Virus record (IMG/VR): IMGVR_UViG_2740892230_000001
Span: 1 to 22,636 of that record
Length of the DNA: 22,636 bases
Strand: one strand, 5' to 3'
Origin: a virus
Taxonomy: Duplodnaviria > Heunggongvirae > Uroviricota > Caudoviricetes
How positions within the stretch are numbered: position 1 is the first letter of the stretch; the number at the start of each line of letters is the position of its first letter. The translations under genes were made by a program, and so were the position numbers. The notes below the pieces were generated by a model, which was not told the DNA's origin, did not search any database, and saw only the letters and a program-made list of their open reading frames with translations. This document shows positions 1-19,010 of the stretch, piece by piece.

Positions 1-34
1 GGTTCTTCTGACGGGCGGCGGCACAGGGATGTGC
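1..34. repeat. Left copy of a perfect 34-bp inverted repeat (partner at 1164-1197); the window starts inside it, so it may extend leftward
   Basis: 1-34 ggttcttctgacgggcggcggcacagggatgtgc is the exact reverse complement of 1164-1197. Read on the plus strand it ends a frame with GGG TTC TTC TGA, the same final codons and stop as the antirepressor gene. Confidence 0.8.
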
Positions 35-48
35 AAAACGAAACTATC

Positions 49-60
49 GTGACATGTCAC
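49..60. repeat. 12-bp perfect palindrome GTGACATGTCAC; the 14-mer tcgtgacatgtcac recurs at 21917-21930
   Basis: Direct reading; self-complementary; second identical copy about 21.9 kb away. Confidence 0.7.
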
Positions 61-78
61 AGGCCGCTTTCGCGGCCT
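61..78 (-). terminator. GC-rich stem-loop after the small secreted peptide gene (weak U-tract)
   Basis: AGGCCGC / GCGGCCT 7-bp stem with a 4-nt loop directly after the stop at 86-88; downstream T-run is poor, so terminator function is uncertain. Confidence 0.3.
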
Positions 79-85
79 TGTTCTT

Positions 86-247
86 TTAACGAATGCCACC
101 GCCGCCCGGGCGGGAATCCGCAGAACGCCCACCGCAGCGGGAGCCGTCAGCGGCAGTATCGCTGTCGTGCTGACAACGACCGGCAAAGGCCTGAGTTGAA
201 GCTACCAGAGACAACAAAACGAACAGTGCAGCAAATGCTTTTTTCAT
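86..247 (-). CDS. Small secreted peptide, 53 aa: predicted signal peptide MKKAFAALFVLLSLVASTQAFA, then a 31-aa Gly/Cys-rich mature part
   Basis: Internal Met of track ORF 86..352. Classic n/h/c signal peptide with AFA-G cleavage motif. The longer ORF start would read through the terminator hairpin at 320-339, so the MKK start is preferred. Confidence 0.35.
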   Translation of the reverse strand: MKKAFAALFVLLSLVASTQAFAGRCQHDSDTAADGSRCGGRSADSRPGGGGIR

Positions 248-260
248 TGTGAAATTTCCA

Positions 261-288
261 TCTATAAGCCACCTCAATGTGGCGTCAA
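261..288 (-). promoter_or_regulatory. Putative sigma70 promoter for the peptide gene (TTGACG-16-TATAGA) with an inverted repeat in the spacer
   Basis: Minus-strand TTGACG at 288-283 and TATAGA at 266-261; GCCAC..GTGGC inverted repeat at 268-283; very short leader. Confidence 0.3.
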
Positions 289-319
289 TGAGTGTAGCAC
301 TGACTTTTGTTTCGTCCAC

Positions 320-339
320 AAAAAAGCCCGCGCTGCGGG
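320..339 (-). terminator. Rho-independent terminator of the two-gene operon
   Basis: Minus strand reads GCCCGC-AGC-GCGGGC followed by TTTTT, immediately after the TAG stop at 340-342. Confidence 0.55.
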
Positions 340-885
340 CTATTCCTTCCATTTATCAGAAAAAAGATCTTCTTCTAAAGGCATTGGTTCTGTTTTTGTT
401 TTCTCAAAGAATTGATAACTGATAGTGATTGCTTCCTCTTTAAACTCTTCTTGCTCAGTTATGTTGTGAGCATCTGCGTCAACAAAAAACATAACCAGCG
501 CATCACGATTGTGATTTACCGAATAAACTAAAAAGCAATCACTTGTTGGTATGCATTTTACTTGTACAGACGCTATATTTTTCCATGCATCCCAAGATGA
601 TTTTTTACCAGTGTGTTTTTTATCACTATCTTCTGGAATATAGTCTTGGTTATCGACATGAGTATGCCTGACATTTAGTTTAAGCATTTCTGTCGGACGA
701 GCAAATGCAGCATCTTTACCAAGAGATGGATGGTATCCCGTTTTCCAATACTGGGTAAAGGCATCAGATACTTTCTTCAGCTCAAGATCAGATGCACAAA
801 GGGCCGAGAAATTTTGCGTATGCAACACTCGACCCTTATATCTGACAACTTGATTTTTATCATTCTGCGACGCAGACGAACTCAT
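340..885 (-). CDS. YafO-like toxin-family protein, 181 aa (candidate type II toxin / mRNA interferase)
   Basis: Track ORF 340..912 trimmed to the ATG at 885, which has an AAGGA SD. Segments KLNVRHTHVDN and FLVYSVNH..ALVMFFVDADAH resemble the recalled E. coli YafO pattern (V.H.HL.N ... HLVY ... LLIAIL..H). AT-rich gene with its own terminator. Confidence 0.45.
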   Translation of the reverse strand: MSSSASQNDKNQVVRYKGRVLHTQNFSALCASDLELKKVSDAFTQYWKTGYHPSLGKDAAFARPTEMLKLNVRHTHVDNQDYIPEDSDKKHTGKKSSWDAWKNIASVQVKCIPTSDCFLVYSVNHNRDALVMFFVDADAHNITEQEEFKEEAITISYQFFEKTKTEPMPLEEDLFSDKWKE

Positions 886-1039
886 AATTTTCCTTATTGT
901 TACGAGAATCAAAGAAAGCGCGGGATACGCGACTTGCGTGATCTTTTGTCATAGTAACTTTTACGTACTCTACGCTTCCATTGAAAGAACGTCTTGCGGC
1001 AGCTTGCGCTCTACGCATCTGCAATTTTTCGTTTCGCAT
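860..1039 (-). CDS. 59-aa ORF overlapping the toxin-like gene start by 26 nt; candidate antitoxin or regulator (absent from the ORF track, below the length cutoff)
   Basis: Hand translation: MRNEKLQMRRAQAAARRSFNGSVEYVKVTMTKDHASRVSRAFFDSRNNKENYEFVCVAE, stop TGA at 860-862. GAGG SD 7 nt upstream of the ATG at 1039. Small upstream overlapping gene is the usual antitoxin position. Confidence 0.35.
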   Translation of the reverse strand: MRNEKLQMRRAQAAARRSFNGSVEYVKVTMTKDHASRVSRAFFDSRNNKENYEFVCVAE

Positions 1040-1113
1040 GACATTACCTCATATCTCATAAGTTCATTACACGGATTAATAAAAATGAAACCAATCCGTT
1101 TACCCTTGAGGTA

Positions 1114-1142
1114 ATAGTACGCTATTCACCCACAGTCTGCAA
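1114..1142 (-). promoter_or_regulatory. Putative sigma70 promoter of the toxin-antitoxin-like operon (TTGCAG-17-TACTAT)
   Basis: Minus-strand -35 at 1142-1137 and -10 at 1119-1114. A 9-bp inverted repeat TGAGGTAAT (1107-1115) / ATTACCTCA (1043-1051) overlaps the -10 and the SD. Confidence 0.3.
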
Positions 1143-1163
1143 TCTGTACAGAATTATTTAAAG

Positions 1164-1197
1164 GCACATCCCTGTGCCGCCGCCCGTCAGAAGAACC
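1164..1197. repeat. Right copy of the 34-bp inverted repeat; overlaps the last three codons and stop of the antirepressor gene and contains the hairpin GGCACA-GGGA-TGTGCC
   Basis: Exact reverse complement of 1-34. The hairpin is followed on the minus strand by TTTAAATAATT, a possible terminator for the antirepressor gene. Confidence 0.8.
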
Positions 1198-2131
1198 CTG
1201 CTTTGTCGTTGATGTACTCCGCGTGCGTCTGGATATCACGCAGGCATTTGCTCACACCAACGATGTAACAGAACATGGTGGTCAGCTCCGCCGCCGCGCC
1301 CGATACATCGTGCCCGTCTTCCTGTAACTGGTTCAGCAGATTCATCAGCAGTGAGTTCTCCGTCAGACCGAGAACACCAGACGGAGAATGAATCAGACTG
1401 CGGTAGCCGGGCTTCAATGGATAACCATAACATTTTGTCTGTGTTTTAATTGCCTCACGAAGCGCATCTAACATCTTGACTGCCACTTCATCATTCTCTG
1501 ATGCAGATCCAGCAGGGAGATACTCCCCTTCAAGCGGAACCCGAGCAACAAGAGACAACGCTTCGGCAAATTGATCTTCACCAATTTCTTTGTACGAACA
1601 GCCAAAATGAGATTTCAGTGACGACCACATGGTGATCATCGCCTTAGCCTGTTTTTCTTTTGGCAGAGACTGACCGCGACTCATGACGAGTTGTTTAATG
1701 GCTTCCTGCTGTTCAGTTGTTATTTTACCCGGCAACGCCTTTTTAGCTTTGCGTGGGTTAACCACATGGCCTTTAGTCCAGTACTCGTAGAGCACATCGT
1801 CACACTCTTCCTGATACTGGATTACCTTGTCGCGGATTTCAGGGCGGACTTTGTTAGGGCTGATGGTTTGCAGCCAACCTGCAAGTTTGCGTAAAGCAAG
1901 ACAGATAACCAGACGACGCTGAGTATCACCGGGGAGCTGAATGGTCATTTCGACCATGCAGCTCTTAAAGCGTTGTTGCAACTTGCGGAACTGCGTTTTC
2001 CAGTCCAGCCCCATACCTTCAACGACTGGTTTCATTGGGGTGTATGGTTCGCCGTTATGATTGACAACATAAAGCTCTGCGCCGTGGAATGGCACGTTGA
2101 TAGTAGATACCGCTGTTGCTATACTCGTCAT
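1187..2131 (-). CDS. Phage antirepressor (Ant-like), 314 aa
   Basis: N-terminus NVPFHGAELYVVNHNGEPYTPMKPVVEGMGLDWKTQFRKL fits the phage antirepressor N-terminal family as I recall it. Lies directly downstream of an Arc-like gene as in P22 immI. AGGAA SD 7 nt upstream. Confidence 0.6.
   Translation of the reverse strand: MTSIATAVSTINVPFHGAELYVVNHNGEPYTPMKPVVEGMGLDWKTQFRKLQQRFKSCMVEMTIQLPGDTQRRLVICLALRKLAGWLQTISPNKVRPEIRDKVIQYQEECDDVLYEYWTKGHVVNPRKAKKALPGKITTEQQEAIKQLVMSRGQSLPKEKQAKAMITMWSSLKSHFGCSYKEIGEDQFAEALSLVARVPLEGEYLPAGSASENDEVAVKMLDALREAIKTQTKCYGYPLKPGYRSLIHSPSGVLGLTENSLLMNLLNQLQEDGHDVSGAAAELTTMFCYIVGVSKCLRDIQTHAEYINDKAGFF
2097..2125 (+). promoter_or_regulatory. Strong sigma70-like promoter on the antisense strand inside the 5' end of the antirepressor gene (TTGATA-17-TATACT)
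   Basis: TTGATA at 2097-2102, 17-nt spacer, TATACT at 2120-2125; predicted start near 2132, at the antirepressor start codon. Confidence 0.4.
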
Positions 2132-2206
2132 GTCGTTAATTCCTATACGTAGTTTTACGATACTGAAGCCCTGACGGTCTGGCCACCGTGGGGCTTCGCT
2201 GTTTTA
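2132..2206 (+). ncRNA. Predicted sar-like antisense RNA (about 70 nt) complementary to the antirepressor ribosome-binding site
   Basis: Promoter at 2097-2125, then stem GAAGCCC (2165-2171) / GGGCTTC (2191-2197) followed by GCTGTTTTA. Spans the antirepressor SD (complement of 2140-2144) and start codon. Same arrangement as the known P22 sar RNA. Confidence 0.35.
2181..2194. promoter_or_regulatory. Operator-like motif GGCCACCGTGGGGC between the Arc-like and antirepressor genes (second copy at 2386-2400)
   Basis: CCACCGTGGGGC is repeated exactly at 2183-2194 and 2389-2400; CACCGTG / CACGGTG also at 2413-2419 and 2439-2445. Confidence 0.4.
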
Positions 2207-2371
2207 TGCCACGCTATTCTTCTCACCAGTGAGTCCATACACTTTCCTCAGCTGATAGATAATCTCTGTATTGAACTTTCGGCATTCTTTTTCGCCATTT
2301 CTTTCAATAGCTAACTTCACATCGTCCGGAAAACGAACTCGTCGTTGACACATCTCTTTTGCTTTTTGCAT
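2204..2371 (-). CDS. Arc-like ribbon-helix-helix repressor, 55 aa
   Basis: Track ORF 2204..2392 trimmed to the ATG at 2371 with an AGGAGA SD. RVRFPDDVKLAIERNGEKECRKFNTEIIYQLRKVY follows the Arc pattern (FNLRWP..EVLDLV...NGRSVNSEIYQRV) recalled from P22. Confidence 0.55.
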   Translation of the reverse strand: MQKAKEMCQRRVRFPDDVKLAIERNGEKECRKFNTEIIYQLRKVYGLTGEKNSVA

Positions 2372-2385
2372 TTCATATCTCCTTA

Positions 2386-2400
2386 GCCCCACCGTGGGGC
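2386..2400. promoter_or_regulatory. Operator-like palindrome GCCCCACCGTGGGGC at the predicted start of the arc/ant transcript
   Basis: Sits between the -10 of the minus-strand promoter (2407-2412) and the Arc-like start codon (2371). Confidence 0.4.
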
Positions 2401-2406
2401 AAAATA

Positions 2407-2435
2407 ATTGTCACACCGTGCGTCATTGATGTCAA
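2407..2435 (-). promoter_or_regulatory. Putative arc/ant promoter (TTGACA-17-GACAAT) in the divergent intergenic region
   Basis: Minus-strand perfect -35 TTGACA at 2435-2430 and GACAAT at 2412-2407. A weaker divergent promoter for the Mnt-like gene may overlap it (TTGATG 2427-2432). Confidence 0.4.
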
Positions 2436-2491
2436 GCACACGGTGAGGCATACTTCAATCATTGCAAGTAACTCAATATTTGGTGAAGAAC

Positions 2492-2923
2492 ATGAGCAGA
2501 GAAGATCCACAACTAAGGATCAGACTTCCCGTTGAAGTAAAAGAAAAAATAGAAATTTCTGCAAAAGCCAATAAGCGATCAATGAACGCTGAAATAGTAC
2601 AACGTCTTGACACCAGCTTTCTGAAAGATATTCATGAAGATGACGTAATTTCTGCTTATGAAGCAAAAATTATTGCAAACAATGCACGACATGAAATATC
2701 AAATATTATTTTCAAAAGAACCTTTAATGAAATTAATAAGAAAATAACACTTGGACATACAAGTTTTTATATAAACCTTAATGACCTTGAACTGGAATCA
2801 CTTGCAGATAATGATTACCAGATCATCTTTGAAAAAACATTTAATAAGCTCAATGAACTAGGTTACATCATCTGTGAAAACTCATGGGATGCAGATGGTT
2901 TTGGAATTGAAATACCTGAATAG
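2492..2923 (+). CDS. Mnt-like repressor, 143 aa: N-terminal Arc/Mnt ribbon-helix-helix domain plus an unassigned C-terminal domain of about 95 aa
   Basis: MSREDPQLRIRLPVEVKEKIEISAKANKRSMNAEIVQRL closely parallels recalled P22 Mnt (MARDDPHFNFRMPMEVREKLKFRAEANGRSMNSELLQIV). ATG at 2492 has a GGTGA SD; the track start at 2462 is a TTG. Divergent from arc/ant as in immI. Confidence 0.6.
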   Translation: MSREDPQLRIRLPVEVKEKIEISAKANKRSMNAEIVQRLDTSFLKDIHEDDVISAYEAKIIANNARHEISNIIFKRTFNEINKKITLGHTSFYINLNDLELESLADNDYQIIFEKTFNKLNELGYIICENSWDADGFGIEIPE

Positions 2924-3013
2924 GAAGAACAAAAGGCGTGTACATATTACACGTCTTTAATACAATTGAAAAACGCCACATTACTGATGTATGTTACAAC
3001 AAGGAGCGATATT

Positions 3014-3577
3014 TTGAAAACCATATCTATATTAAAGGTTGCATTAGGCGTCGCTATTATTTTGACTCTCTCAATATTGTTTTATTTTTACCACAAAAAA
3101 ACTGCTATTGCTCTTGATGGTCACGCGGCAAACTCATTTTTCTCAGAGTACATAGTGCCGCTATCAGGAAGCGGTATAACAAATAAATATACTGACTATG
3201 ACATCAAATATGGAATTGATGATGGGGAGACTATTGTATTACATGTAATCATTAAAAACCTAATGACAGTAAATAAAAATACAGACTTCAACGATAAAAA
3301 TACAATACATCACAACAACAGCAAAACATTAATTTCTTATAGTAGCAACATCTATACGGATAAATACCTAAAATACATATCAGAAGATACAATAAAAGAA
3401 ACCCGCGAAAAGTTAAAAAACATATATTGTGCATCCGGCAGTTTTCACAAATTATCGCCGCAAGAGCGTTTATTCTACGAAGCAAGAAAACAACGTAAGT
3501 CAATAATATTACATTATTATGCTGATTCAGGGGAGTCACTCATATTTAATATTGGGGTTTCCCCTGAATCATGCTAA
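3014..3577 (+). CDS. Membrane-anchored protein, about 187 aa, N/K/Y-rich, unknown function (candidate superinfection-exclusion or abortive-infection factor)
   Basis: TTG start at 3014 with ideal AAGGAG SD 7 nt upstream (alternative starts ATG 2987, TTG 2966). N-terminal hydrophobic helix KTISILKVALGVAIILTLSILFYFY. Very AT-rich gene. Positional analogue of P22 sieA beside mnt. Confidence 0.5.
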   Translation: MKTISILKVALGVAIILTLSILFYFYHKKTAIALDGHAANSFFSEYIVPLSGSGITNKYTDYDIKYGIDDGETIVLHVIIKNLMTVNKNTDFNDKNTIHHNNSKTLISYSSNIYTDKYLKYISEDTIKETREKLKNIYCASGSFHKLSPQERLFYEARKQRKSIILHYYADSGESLIFNIGVSPESC

Positions 3578-18933: not shown

Positions 18934-19010
18934 GTGGCATTAGCTCAGTTGGACAGAGCAACCGCCTTCTAAGCGGTTGGTCGCAGGTTCGAATCCTGCA
19001 TGCCACGCCA
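18934..19010 (+). tRNA. tRNA-Arg, anticodon UCU, 77 nt with encoded CCA
   Basis: Hand-folded cloverleaf: acceptor GTGGCAT/ATGCCAC, D-stem GCTC/GAGC, anticodon stem ACCGC/GCGGT with loop CTTCTAA, T-arm GCAGG-TTCGAAT-CCTGC, discriminator G. Similar to, but clearly diverged from, E. coli argU as recalled. Confidence 0.9.

What the first reader, a model, noticed from the sequence alone, without database searches (positions are those of the whole stretch)
2097..2206. Predicted sar-like antisense RNA against the antirepressor translation start
A near-consensus promoter sits on the antisense strand inside the first codons of the antirepressor gene. Its predicted start falls at the start codon, and about 70 nt downstream there is a stem (7 bp, GAAGCCC/GGGCTTC) plus T-run that abuts the Arc-like stop codon. 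The resulting RNA would be fully complementary to the antirepressor SD and start codon, the same arrangement as the P22 sar RNA.
Basis: partly seen in the sequence, partly recalled or inferred. Interest (0 to 1): 0.5.

Follow-up and report, generated by a model that had tools for sequence, protein, structure and literature searches.

The report
Unannotated sar antisense RNA gene
This is a real but ordinary copy of the well-known phage P22 "sar" antisense RNA, which sits opposite the ribosome-binding site of the antirepressor gene in an E. coli prophage nearly identical to TL-2011b; it is missing from the public annotations I inspected.

Summary
Window 2097-2206 (+) holds a sigma-70 promoter (TTGATA-17 nt-TG-n-TATACT) inside codons 3-12 of ant. 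It is followed by a roughly 73-nt unit with two hairpins and a T-run that overlaps the arc stop codon. Rfam's sar model (RF00262) matches 2133-2200 at 44.8 bits, above its gathering score of 43. The P22 record annotates sar, Psar and the terminator at the equivalent positions. In 79 homologues the two helices are 96% paired and 10 of 21 pairs show compensatory changes. Conserved G-U pairs make the sar strand fold better than its complement in 64 of 64 variants. The TG-TAnnnT promoter signature persists while the overlapping Ant residues vary.

- The terminator stem is 14 bp, not 7.
- By homology the transcript starts at G2132, one base past the start codon. It therefore covers the Shine-Dalgarno sequence but probably not the AUG.

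The surrounding module is a diverged P22 immI region: Ant is 39% identical to the P22 protein, Arc 33% and Mnt 32%. No experiment exists for this phage. Verdict: a new member of a known kind, of low interest. Side observations include a frameshifted mnt homologue in the TL-2011b record and a flipped 1.1-kb segment at the window edge.

The parts
2097..2102 (+). Psar -35 hexamer TTGATA (5 of 6 to consensus; a better match than P22's GTGTTA)
   Evidence: Promoter scan. The -35 hexamers across homologues are listed.
2117..2125 (+). Psar extended -10, TG-c-TATACT. It lies in ant codons 3-5 (Ser-Ile-Ala, read on the minus strand).
   Evidence: It is invariant in P22, CUS-3 and the window. In the hairpin-anchored homologues 51 of 54 keep TAnnnT and 48 of 54 keep TG.
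2132..2205 (+). Predicted sar RNA of about 72-74 nt. The 5' end at G2132 is set by homology with P22 sar. The 3' end lies in the T-run at 2202-2205.
   Evidence: Rfam RF00262 hit at 2133-2200, 44.8 bits. My own covariance model hits 2132-2205. P22 annotation is and the alignment.
2132..2161 (+). Stem-loop I: arms 2132-2136 and 2157-2161 (5 pairs) with a 20-nt loop. The loop carries the anti-Shine-Dalgarno sequence UUCCU at 2140-2144.
   Evidence: Fold. Six of the 7 pairs of helix 1 show compensatory changes in 79 homologues.
2164..2198 (+). Stem-loop II, the terminator hairpin: 14 pairs including 2 G-U pairs, one bulged G (2173) and the loop CUGGCC (2179-2184).
   Evidence: Fold. Helix 2 is 99.2% paired across 79 homologues. 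Hairpin energy is -19.5 kcal/mol.
2199..2206 (+). Terminator tail CTGTTTTA. The T-run at 2202-2205 overlaps the arc-like stop codon (TAA, complement of 2204-2206).
   Evidence: Sequence. In P22 the sar 3' end also overlaps the arc stop codon.
2129..2144 (-). Target site on ant mRNA: SD AGGAA (complement of 2140-2144), an 8-nt spacer, then AUG (complement of 2129-2131).
   Evidence: Sequence. Ant aligns with P22 Ant from residue 1.
1187..2131 (-). ant, the antirepressor gene (314 aa)
   Evidence: Pfam P22_AR_N, E = 2.9e-45. PHROG anti-repressor Ant families. 39% identity to P22 Ant.
2204..2371 (-). arc-like ribbon-helix-helix repressor gene (55 aa), first gene of the Pant transcript
   Evidence: BLASTP against P22 Arc: 33% identity, E = 4e-5. 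phrog_228 'Arc-like repressor', E = 3.4e-5. No Pfam hit.
2407..2435 (-). Pant: TTGACA-17 nt-GACAAT with TG. It is convergent with Psar, and the two predicted start sites lie about 268 bp apart.
   Evidence: The layout matches P22 Pant.
2386..2400 (.). 15-bp palindrome GCCCCACCGTGGGGC, 6 nt downstream of the Pant -10. It is the putative operator of the Mnt-like repressor and sits where the P22 Omnt (AGGTCCACGGTGGACCT) sits.
   Evidence: This is an inference from position and the shared CCACNGTGG core; binding was not tested.
2492..2923 (+). mnt-like repressor gene (143 aa), divergent from arc-ant
   Evidence: Pfam Arc domain, E = 1.1e-14. 32% identity to P22 Mnt over its full length. PGAP annotates the same 432-nt CDS in E. 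coli genomes.

Best explanation
Window 2097-2206 (+) encodes the sar antisense RNA of a P22-type immunity I (immI) module carried by a prophage nearly identical to E. coli phage TL-2011b.

A sigma-70 promoter with an extended -10 lies inside the first codons of ant and fires against the direction of ant. Its transcript of about 73 nt starts at G2132 and ends at an intrinsic terminator whose U-run overlaps the arc stop codon.

The RNA forms two hairpins. The loop of the first presents UUCCU, the exact complement of the ant Shine-Dalgarno sequence. The second is the terminator.

Because the RNA is encoded opposite its target, it is perfectly complementary to the whole 72-nt arc-ant spacer. Pairing should sequester the ant ribosome-binding site and block Ant translation. 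This would apply to Pant transcripts and to late-operon read-through transcripts, which enter arc-ant on the minus strand.

Shown here: homology, anatomy, conservation, covariation and strand bias. Inferred from P22 work: transcription, the exact ends, translational repression, and interference between the convergent Pant and Psar promoters.
For: Family match and anatomy:
- The Rfam sar model matches full length above its gathering score, with E = 8e-8 on the 701-nt sub-region.
- The P22 record annotates sar, Psar and the terminator in the same relative positions, and the alignment shows invariant -10 and lower-stem blocks.

Structure:
- The window RNA folds into two hairpins at -24.1 kcal/mol, z = -2.35, the same architecture as P22 sar.
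- 64 distinct homologues collected by the promoter pattern alone all fold into the same two hairpins.
- In a covariance-model alignment of 79 homologues, 96.4% of cells are paired, against 34-42% for slid controls. Ten of 21 pairs have double changes, in 107 cells, and 0 of 500 shuffles reach these values.

Strand:
- Conserved G-U pairs make the sar strand more stable than its complement in 64 of 64 variants, with means of -29.6 and -20.0 kcal/mol.

Promoter:
- In homologues collected by the hairpin pattern alone, 51 of 54 keep TAnnnT and 48 of 54 keep TG at a fixed distance from the ant start. Ant residues 3-5 meanwhile vary (SIA, SLA, SVA, SIS, SIP, NVA and others). The constraint is therefore on the promoter, not the protein.
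- Psar and Pant are the only two sites in the window scoring at least 10 of 12 with TG.

Context:
- The neighbours are ant, an arc-like gene and an mnt-like gene in the P22 arrangement.
- The late operon runs on the same strand into arc-ant.
- The literature states that sar represses Ant synthesis by base pairing, and that arc and ant are also transcribed from PLATE.
Against: - There is no expression or functional data for this phage or for any E. coli sar homologue in the material I could search.
- The Rfam score is only 1.8 bits above threshold.
- The fold z-score of the window copy is modest (-2.35; 4 of 200 shuffles fold as well), and its strand asymmetry is small (-24.1 against -22.5 kcal/mol).
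- The U-tail is short and interrupted (GCUGUUUU), although P22's proven terminator tail (AACUUU) is weaker.
- The covariation alignment was fitted to the model structure, which inflates pairing somewhat.
- The primary papers on sar structure and kinetics were not held in the library, so mechanistic details rest on secondary citations and on my recollection.
Confidence: 0.9

Rival explanations
1. The conserved hairpins act in the sense arc-ant mRNA, for example as a processing or stability element or for translational coupling. On this reading the antisense promoter is a coincidence of the Ant N-terminal codons and no antisense RNA matters.
For: The complement also folds. For the window copy the difference is small: -22.5 against -24.1 kcal/mol. 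The hairpins lie in an intercistronic spacer where mRNA structures are common.
Against: In 64 of 64 variants the sar strand is the more stable one, because conserved G-U pairs become A-C mismatches on the sense strand. The TG-TAnnnT signature is kept while the amino acids it encodes change. P22 sar is an experimentally established transcript. On the minus strand the hairpin is not followed by a T-run.
Confidence: 0.03
2. The element is a homologue of sar by descent but is inactive or irrelevant in this phage lineage, for example never expressed at useful levels.
For: The Rfam score is borderline. Stem I is shorter (5 pairs) and the terminator has a bulge. No expression data exist.
Against: The promoter matches consensus better than P22's: TTGATA against GTGTTA at -35, with the same extended -10. 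The element is identical or nearly identical in E. coli prophages, where 34 of 5,426 complete genomes carry copies at 95% identity or more. The one substitution seen in a close relative still allows the hairpin to form. All parts are intact.
Confidence: 0.05
3. The block is conserved mainly as a recombination 'boundary sequence' that joins interchangeable arc and ant modules, not for any RNA function.
For: The CUS-3 record labels this spacer 'bsq2; boundary sequence'. The same sar core is joined to many different ant N-termini and arc alleles.
Against: A pure homology patch would not show compensatory base-pair changes, preserved G-U pairs or a preserved promoter signature. The two roles are not exclusive: a conserved functional RNA gene can also serve as a crossover point.
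Confidence: 0.02

Closest known systems
sar RNA of Salmonella phage P22 (Rfam RF00262; Liao et al. 1987, Wu et al. 1987 and Schaefer & McClure 1997, cited)
   Same: - The position is the same: antisense to the arc-ant spacer, with the promoter inside the first ant codons and the 3' end overlapping the arc stop codon.
- The extended -10 block TTGCTATACT..TCATGT and the lower terminator stem GAAGCCCTGAC/TGGGGCTTC are the same.
- The two-hairpin architecture is the same, with the anti-SD in loop I.
- The convergent Pant lies at a similar distance, about 268 bp against about 262 bp.
   Different: - The RNA is about 65% identical overall.
- Stem I has 5 pairs and a 20-nt loop, against 6 pairs and 16 nt in P22, and it is kept by compensatory changes.
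- The terminator apex is replaced (ACGGUCUGGCCACCGU, with a bulge and a 6-nt loop, against CUGUUACCGCAG with a 4-nt loop).
- The predicted length is 72-74 nt, against 68-70 nt.
- The -35 is near consensus (TTGATA, against GTGTTA).
- The tail is GCUGUUUU, against AACUUU.
- The partner proteins are strongly diverged: Ant 39%, Arc 33% and Mnt 32% identical, and Mnt is 143 aa against 83 aa.
- The host is E. coli, and the virion genes are close to those of phiV10-type phages.
sar homologues predicted in other P22-like phages and prophages (epsilon34, UAB_Phi20, CUS-3 and many IMG/VR contigs)
   Same: The family is the same. Epsilon34 is predicted to encode Sar, and UAB_Phi20 sar expression was measured by RT-qPCR. 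CUS-3 has the same stem I as the window and a 90% identical promoter and 5' half.
   Different: The window combines the CUS-3-type stem I with a rarer terminator apex, also seen in L065 and L107 next to unrelated arc genes. The copy is not annotated in the TL-2011b records. It is also absent from the E. coli RefSeq annotations I inspected: two loci in full and the rows listed.
Other cis-antisense RNAs of lambdoid phages (lambda/P22 OOP, P22 sas, the anti-Q/gene 23 antisense RNA)
   Same: They are short, highly structured, cis-encoded RNAs with their own constitutive promoter and an intrinsic terminator, and they act on a regulatory gene of the phage.
   Different: Their targets, sequences and outcomes differ. 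OOP promotes cII mRNA decay, whereas sar occludes a ribosome-binding site. No sequence or Rfam relation to these was found in the window.

Membership tests
sar RNA (Rfam RF00262) | Scores at or above the curated gathering threshold of the family covariance model, full length | tested here: met
   44.8 bits against a gathering score of 43, model positions 1-68 of 68, E = 2.6e-6. The margin is narrow.
sar RNA (Rfam RF00262) | Encoded antisense to the arc-ant intercistronic region and complementary to the ant Shine-Dalgarno sequence | tested here: met
   The RNA at 2132-2205 (+) lies opposite the spacer between the arc stop codon (2204-2206) and the ant AUG (2129-2131). UUCCU at 2140-2144 is the complement of the SD.
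sar RNA (Rfam RF00262) | Own promoter (Psar, extended -10) inside the first codons of ant, reading away from ant | tested here: met
   TTGATA-17 nt-TG-n-TATACT at 2097-2125. It aligns with the annotated P22 Psar and is conserved across homologues. Promoter activity itself was not tested.
sar RNA (Rfam RF00262) | Two stem-loops: a 5' hairpin with the anti-SD in its loop and a 3' terminator hairpin, supported by covariation | tested here: met
   Folds. Across 79 homologues 96.4% of cells are paired and 10 of 21 pairs show compensatory changes. The sar strand is favoured in 64 of 64 variants.
sar RNA (Rfam RF00262) | Rho-independent termination giving a transcript of about 70 nt whose 3' end overlaps the arc stop codon | tested here: inconclusive
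   A hairpin of -19.5 kcal/mol is followed by GCUGUUUU, and the T-run overlaps the TAA. The consensus terminator scan did not call it. The actual 3' end is unknown.
sar RNA (Rfam RF00262) | Is transcribed and represses Ant translation | not testable with these tools
   I found no transcriptome or genetic data for TL-2011b or its E. coli relatives. This is known only for P22 and close relatives.
P22-type immunity I (immI) module | The gene set: ant, arc upstream in the same operon, and a divergent mnt | tested here: met
   Ant: PF10547, E = 2.9e-45. Mnt-like: PF03869, E = 1.1e-14. Arc-like: weak matches only, BLASTP E = 4e-5 against P22 Arc and phrog_228 E = 3.4e-5. Order and orientation are as in P22.
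P22-type immunity I (immI) module | Pant with an overlapping or adjacent palindromic operator for Mnt | tested here: inconclusive
   Pant is at 2435-2407. The 15-bp palindrome GCCCCACCGTGGGGC lies at the position of P22 Omnt and shares the CCACNGTGG core. Protein binding was not tested, and no Arc operator was identified.

The most novel reading that the evidence does not exclude
In this lineage the sar terminator hairpin may double as a second DNA site for the Mnt-like repressor. The 12-mer CCACCGTGGGGC at 2183-2194, in the apex and 3' arm of the terminator, is identical to 12 of the 15 bases of the palindrome GCCCCACCGTGGGGC at 2386-2400, which occupies the Omnt position next to Pant.

A repressor bound between arc and ant could block read-through into ant or modulate sar termination. 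That would couple the protein layer and the RNA layer of antirepressor control.

My tests argue against a requirement for this, but they do not exclude weak binding.
Probability: 0.04. Interest if true: 0.45.

Novelty: new member of a known kind. Interest (0 to 1): 0.15.

Why it matters
The practical value is mainly in annotation.
- The sar gene is missing from the TL-2011b records.
- No RNA feature appears at the two E. coli RefSeq loci I inspected or under the match in the 12 rows shown. In all, 184 of 5,426 complete E. coli genomes carry sar-like DNA.
- The PGAP annotations of ant that I inspected start 12 codons too late, which hides the overlap with the promoter.

For biology, it shows that the three-layer control of antirepressor (Mnt, Arc and sar) travels as a unit into a coliphage whose virion genes match phiV10-type phages. 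It also shows that the RNA core stays nearly fixed while all three partner proteins diverge to 32-39% identity.

The collected variants give a covariation set for sar (64 distinct variants from the promoter pattern, 79 aligned homologues) that could guide pairing-kinetics or specificity experiments. Nothing here challenges current understanding.

Tried and rejected
1. A secondary Mnt operator inside the terminator. The 12-mer repeat is unexpected by chance (0.03 expected per window), but three results argue against a required site.
   - Six of its bases (GGGGC plus the adjacent base) belong to the sar stem that is conserved in all family members.
   - The same apex type occurs in L065 and L107 next to unrelated operators.
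   - A close E. coli relative has a G-to-T change in the terminator copy only, and loci with the same operator carry six other hairpin sequences whose apex lacks the motif.

2. A MAFFT-only alignment for covariation. RNAalifold on A2 recovered only the terminator, because indels put stem I out of register. I replaced it with a covariance-model alignment, with the caveat that such an alignment leans towards the model structure.

3. The consensus terminator scan did not report the sar terminator, because of its bulge and loop rules. I judged the terminator by folding and by homology instead.

4. The primary papers by Schaefer & McClure (1997) were not held in the library. The mechanistic statements therefore rest on secondary citations and on my recollection.

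5. I first took the window to be the TL-2011b record itself, on the basis of 100% identity over 1900-2500. K-mer mapping showed two differences elsewhere, so the window is a near-identical relative.

6. I first took the inverted repeat at the window edge to be a 34-bp site for a specific invertase. It turned out to be the innermost perfect part of 292-nt homologous 3' ends of the Bro-N and ant genes.
Full report
**What the window is.** The 22.6-kb window is almost identical to Escherichia phage TL-2011b (NC_019445/JQ011317), a prophage of an E. coli O103:H25 outbreak strain, read on the reverse strand. It is not the record itself. K-mer mapping shows one 1-bp difference and one flipped segment (see the side observations below). 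Large ORFs of the structural (late) operon run on the minus strand from about 21.9 kb down to 3.6 kb. To their left lies a small island on the plus strand, followed by two minus-strand genes. This is the region of the finding.

**The observation.**
- The promoter scan reports TTGATA (2097-2102), a 17-nt spacer and TATACT (2120-2125), preceded by TG. That is 10 of 12 matches.
- Promoter-like sites of the scan's loose class are no more frequent in 1500-3500 than in shuffles (4 against 5.3), so the match alone proves little.
- Under a stricter rule (at least 10 of 12, plus an extended -10 TG), the entire window has only two sites on both strands: this one and a convergent promoter at 2435-2407. 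The expectation is 0.32 per resample, and 9 of 200 resamples reach two.
- The ant ORF (1187-2131, minus strand) starts with ATG at the complement of 2129-2131. An AGGAA Shine-Dalgarno sequence lies at the complement of 2140-2144.
It has one bulged G and a 6-nt loop.
- The tail GCTGTTTT follows. Its T-run (2202-2205) overlaps the stop codon of the upstream small ORF (TAA, complement of 2204-2206).

**What it is.**
- A scan of the whole window against Rfam at curated thresholds gives two hits: a tRNA, and 'sar RNA' (RF00262) at 2133-2200 on the plus strand. The sar hit is full length, at 44.8 bits against a gathering score of 43, with E = 2.6e-6 and E = 8e-8 for the 701-nt sub-region.
- The curated P22 record annotates the same arrangement. 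sar is a misc_RNA antisense between arc and ant, its promoter lies inside ant, and its terminator overlaps the end of arc.
- Aligned with P22 and with coliphage CUS-3, the blocks TTGCTATACT..TCATGT and GAAGCCCTGAC...TGGGGCTTC are invariant.
- In P22 the annotated 5' end of sar is the base immediately before the ant ATG. The equivalent base here is G2132. The RNA would therefore pair with positions -1 to about -73 of ant mRNA, which covers the Shine-Dalgarno sequence but not the AUG.
- The window RNA (2132-2206) folds into two hairpins at -24.1 kcal/mol, z = -2.35. P22 sar has the same architecture at -29.5 kcal/mol, z = -5.3.
- In both, the anti-Shine-Dalgarno sequence sits in the loop of the first hairpin.

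**Context.**
- The 314-aa ORF is an antirepressor: Pfam P22_AR_N with E = 2.9e-45, and 39% identity to P22 Ant aligned from residue 1.
- The 55-aa ORF upstream (2204-2371) is weakly Arc-like. It has no Pfam hit, but BLASTP against P22 Arc gives E = 4e-5 and phrog_228 gives E = 3.4e-5.
- The divergent 143-aa ORF (2492-2923) has an Arc/Mnt ribbon-helix-helix domain (E = 1.1e-14) and aligns with the whole of P22 Mnt at 32% identity.
- Pant (TTGACA-17 nt-GACAAT with TG, 2435-2407) is followed after 6 nt by the palindrome GCCCCACCGTGGGGC (2386-2400). This is exactly where P22 has the Mnt operator AGGTCCACGGTGGACCT, and the two share the CCACNGTGG core.
- From reading the sequence, a weak plus-strand promoter for mnt (TTGATG 2426-2431, 17 nt, CATACT 2449-2454; 8 of 12) may overlap Pant, as Pmnt does in P22. 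This is inference only.

This is therefore a diverged but complete P22-type immI module, and late-operon transcription on the minus strand would read into it as in P22.

**Evidence beyond one-to-one homology.** I collected relatives from IMG/VR in two independent ways.
- Anchored on the promoter and start-codon pattern only, there are 64 distinct downstream sequences. All fold into a 5' hairpin that starts at the first or second nucleotide, plus a terminator hairpin, even though the stem I sequences differ widely (GUUGGU/ACUGAC, GUCAAUA/UGUUGAU, GUCGU/ACGAU, GCCGG/CUGGC and others).
- Anchored on the hairpin base only, 51 of 54 distinct upstream segments keep TAnnnT and 48 of 54 keep TG at a fixed distance from the ant start. 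Ant residues 3-5, which are encoded by those very bases, vary (SIA, SLA, SVA, SIS, SIP, NVA and others). Selection therefore acts on the promoter rather than on the protein.
- The -35 element varies. P22-type phages have the poor GTGTTA/C, while the window has the near-consensus TTGATA.

A plain MAFFT alignment put stem I out of register. I therefore built a covariance model from eight equal-length sequences and aligned 79 hits to it.
- On that alignment 96.4% of cells are standard pairs, against 34-42% when the partners are slid by 1-3 columns.
- Ten of 21 pairs show changes on both sides, in 107 cells, and 0 of 500 column shuffles reach these values.
- The caveat is that an alignment fitted to a model leans towards that model's structure.
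- Three G-U pairs in the terminator and two in stem I are conserved. On the opposite strand these would be A-C mismatches, and accordingly the sar strand folds better than its complement in 64 of 64 variants, with means of -29.6 and -20.0 kcal/mol.
- For the window copy the gap is small: -24.1 against -22.5 kcal/mol.

**How it most likely works.**
- Shown here: a conserved promoter, a two-hairpin RNA gene with strand-specific structure, and perfect complementarity to the ant leader including its Shine-Dalgarno sequence.
- Inferred from P22 (and my recollection of Liao et al. 1987 and Wu et al. 1987): RNA polymerase starts at G2132 and terminates in the U-run, giving an RNA of about 73 nt. That RNA pairs with ant mRNA and occludes the ribosome-binding site. 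Ant synthesis is thereby held down on Pant transcripts and especially on late-operon read-through transcripts.
- Also from recollection, and not tested here: the face-to-face promoters Pant and Psar, about 268 bp apart, interfere with each other. sar therefore rises after Arc shuts Pant off.

**Differences from P22 sar.**
- The RNA is about 65% identical overall.
- Stem I has 5 pairs and a 20-nt loop, kept by compensatory changes.
- The terminator apex is different (ACGGUCUGGCCACCGU), with a bulge.
- The predicted length is 72-74 nt.
- The -35 is better and the U-run longer.
- The Rfam score is only just above threshold.
- The apex type also recurs in two IMG/VR contigs next to unrelated arc genes. 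This illustrates the mosaic exchange for which this spacer has been labelled a 'boundary sequence' in CUS-3.

**A more novel idea, tested.** The 12-mer CCACCGTGGGGC in the terminator (2183-2194) is identical to most of the putative Mnt operator (2389-2400). Only 0.03 such matches are expected per window. Could the repressor also bind between arc and ant? The evidence is against a requirement.
- Part of the match is the universally conserved GGGGC of the sar stem.
- The same apex occurs with other operators.
- A close E. coli relative has a G-to-T change in the terminator copy but not in the operator.
- Among loci with this operator, six different hairpin sequences carry an apex without the motif.

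I keep this reading as a low-probability possibility.

**Novelty and verdict.**
- sar is a textbook antisense RNA with an Rfam family, and sar homologues have been predicted or measured in other P22-like phages.
- This copy is not annotated in the TL-2011b records.
- In E. coli RefSeq genomes, 184 of 5,426 complete genomes carry sar-like DNA. No RNA feature appears at the two loci I inspected or under the match in the 12 rows shown.

**Side observations.**
- The TL-2011b record has an extra G (GGG against GG near window 2516-2517) that frameshifts the mnt homologue after codon 9. This explains the truncated 'hypothetical protein' annotation. The window and the E. coli prophages have the gene intact.
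- Window 1-1197 is the reverse complement of the deposited sequence. The flip is bounded by a perfect 34-bp inverted repeat (1-34 and 1164-1197), which is the innermost part of 292-nt, 91% identical inverted copies formed by the 3' ends of a Bro-N gene and of ant. All other records checked have the opposite orientation. The window begins exactly at the edge of the perfect repeat, which is what a short-read contig break would produce. The flip may therefore be an assembly ambiguity rather than a real inversion.
- The two PGAP loci I inspected start ant at a GTG 12 codons downstream of the ATG supported by homology with P22 Ant.

Noticed in passing
window 2492-2923 (+); difference near 2516-2517: The deposited TL-2011b sequence has an extra G (GGG against GG). 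This frameshifts the mnt-like repressor gene after codon 9, and the record annotates only a truncated 'hypothetical protein' from window 2583. The window and the E. coli prophages encode the intact 143-aa protein (WP_000085730.1). It is either a sequencing error in the record or a genuine mnt-defective phage.
   Followed up: partly
window 1-1197; inverted repeat at 1-34 and 1164-1197: This segment carries a YafO-family toxin ORF (340-912, minus strand). It is reverse-complemented relative to TL-2011b, to its IMG/VR copy and to E. coli OkiPb01683. The repeat is the perfect inner 34 bp of 292-nt, 91% identical inverted copies formed by the 3' ends of a Bro-N gene and of ant. The window starts exactly at the edge of the perfect repeat, so the orientation may be a contig-assembly ambiguity rather than a true inversion.
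   Followed up: partly
window 2183-2194 and 2389-2400 (palindrome 2386-2400): The 12-mer CCACCGTGGGGC occurs both in the sar terminator and in the putative Mnt operator next to Pant. Only 0.03 such matches are expected per window. Comparative checks suggest the terminator copy is not a required second operator.
   Followed up: yes
window 2095 against 2131 (ant start); L163 and L164: PGAP annotations of the same gene in E. coli genomes start ant at a GTG 12 codons downstream of the ATG supported by homology with P22 Ant and by a good SD. This hides the overlap with Psar. No ncRNA feature for sar is present at these two loci or under the match in the 12 rows shown.
   Followed up: partly
window 2492-2923 (+): The Mnt homologue is 143 aa, against 83 aa in P22. 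P22 Mnt aligns with its first 86 residues, and the remaining 57 or so have no P22 counterpart. The whole protein matches phrog_1388 (function unknown) over its full length. The extra C-terminal part was not characterised.
   Followed up: no
locus L130 (IMGVR_UViG_2718218031_000010), 2574-2649 and 1630-1703, minus strand: One viral contig gives two separate sar-model hits about 0.9 kb apart (47.9 and 41.7 bits). This suggests two sar-type antisense genes, and perhaps two antirepressor modules, in tandem.
   Followed up: no
window 18934-19007 (+): A tRNA gene (73.3 bits), with anticodon loop CUUCUAA and therefore anticodon UCU (Arg). It lies on the strand opposite to the late genes. Related phages annotate a tRNA-Arg there.
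   Followed up: no
window 2937-2953 (-): A terminator-like hairpin (CGTGTAATATGTACACG followed by CCTTTTGTTC) lies on the late-operon strand, between the mnt-like gene and the next ORF and upstream of Pant. It could limit late read-through into arc-ant unless antiterminated.
   Followed up: no
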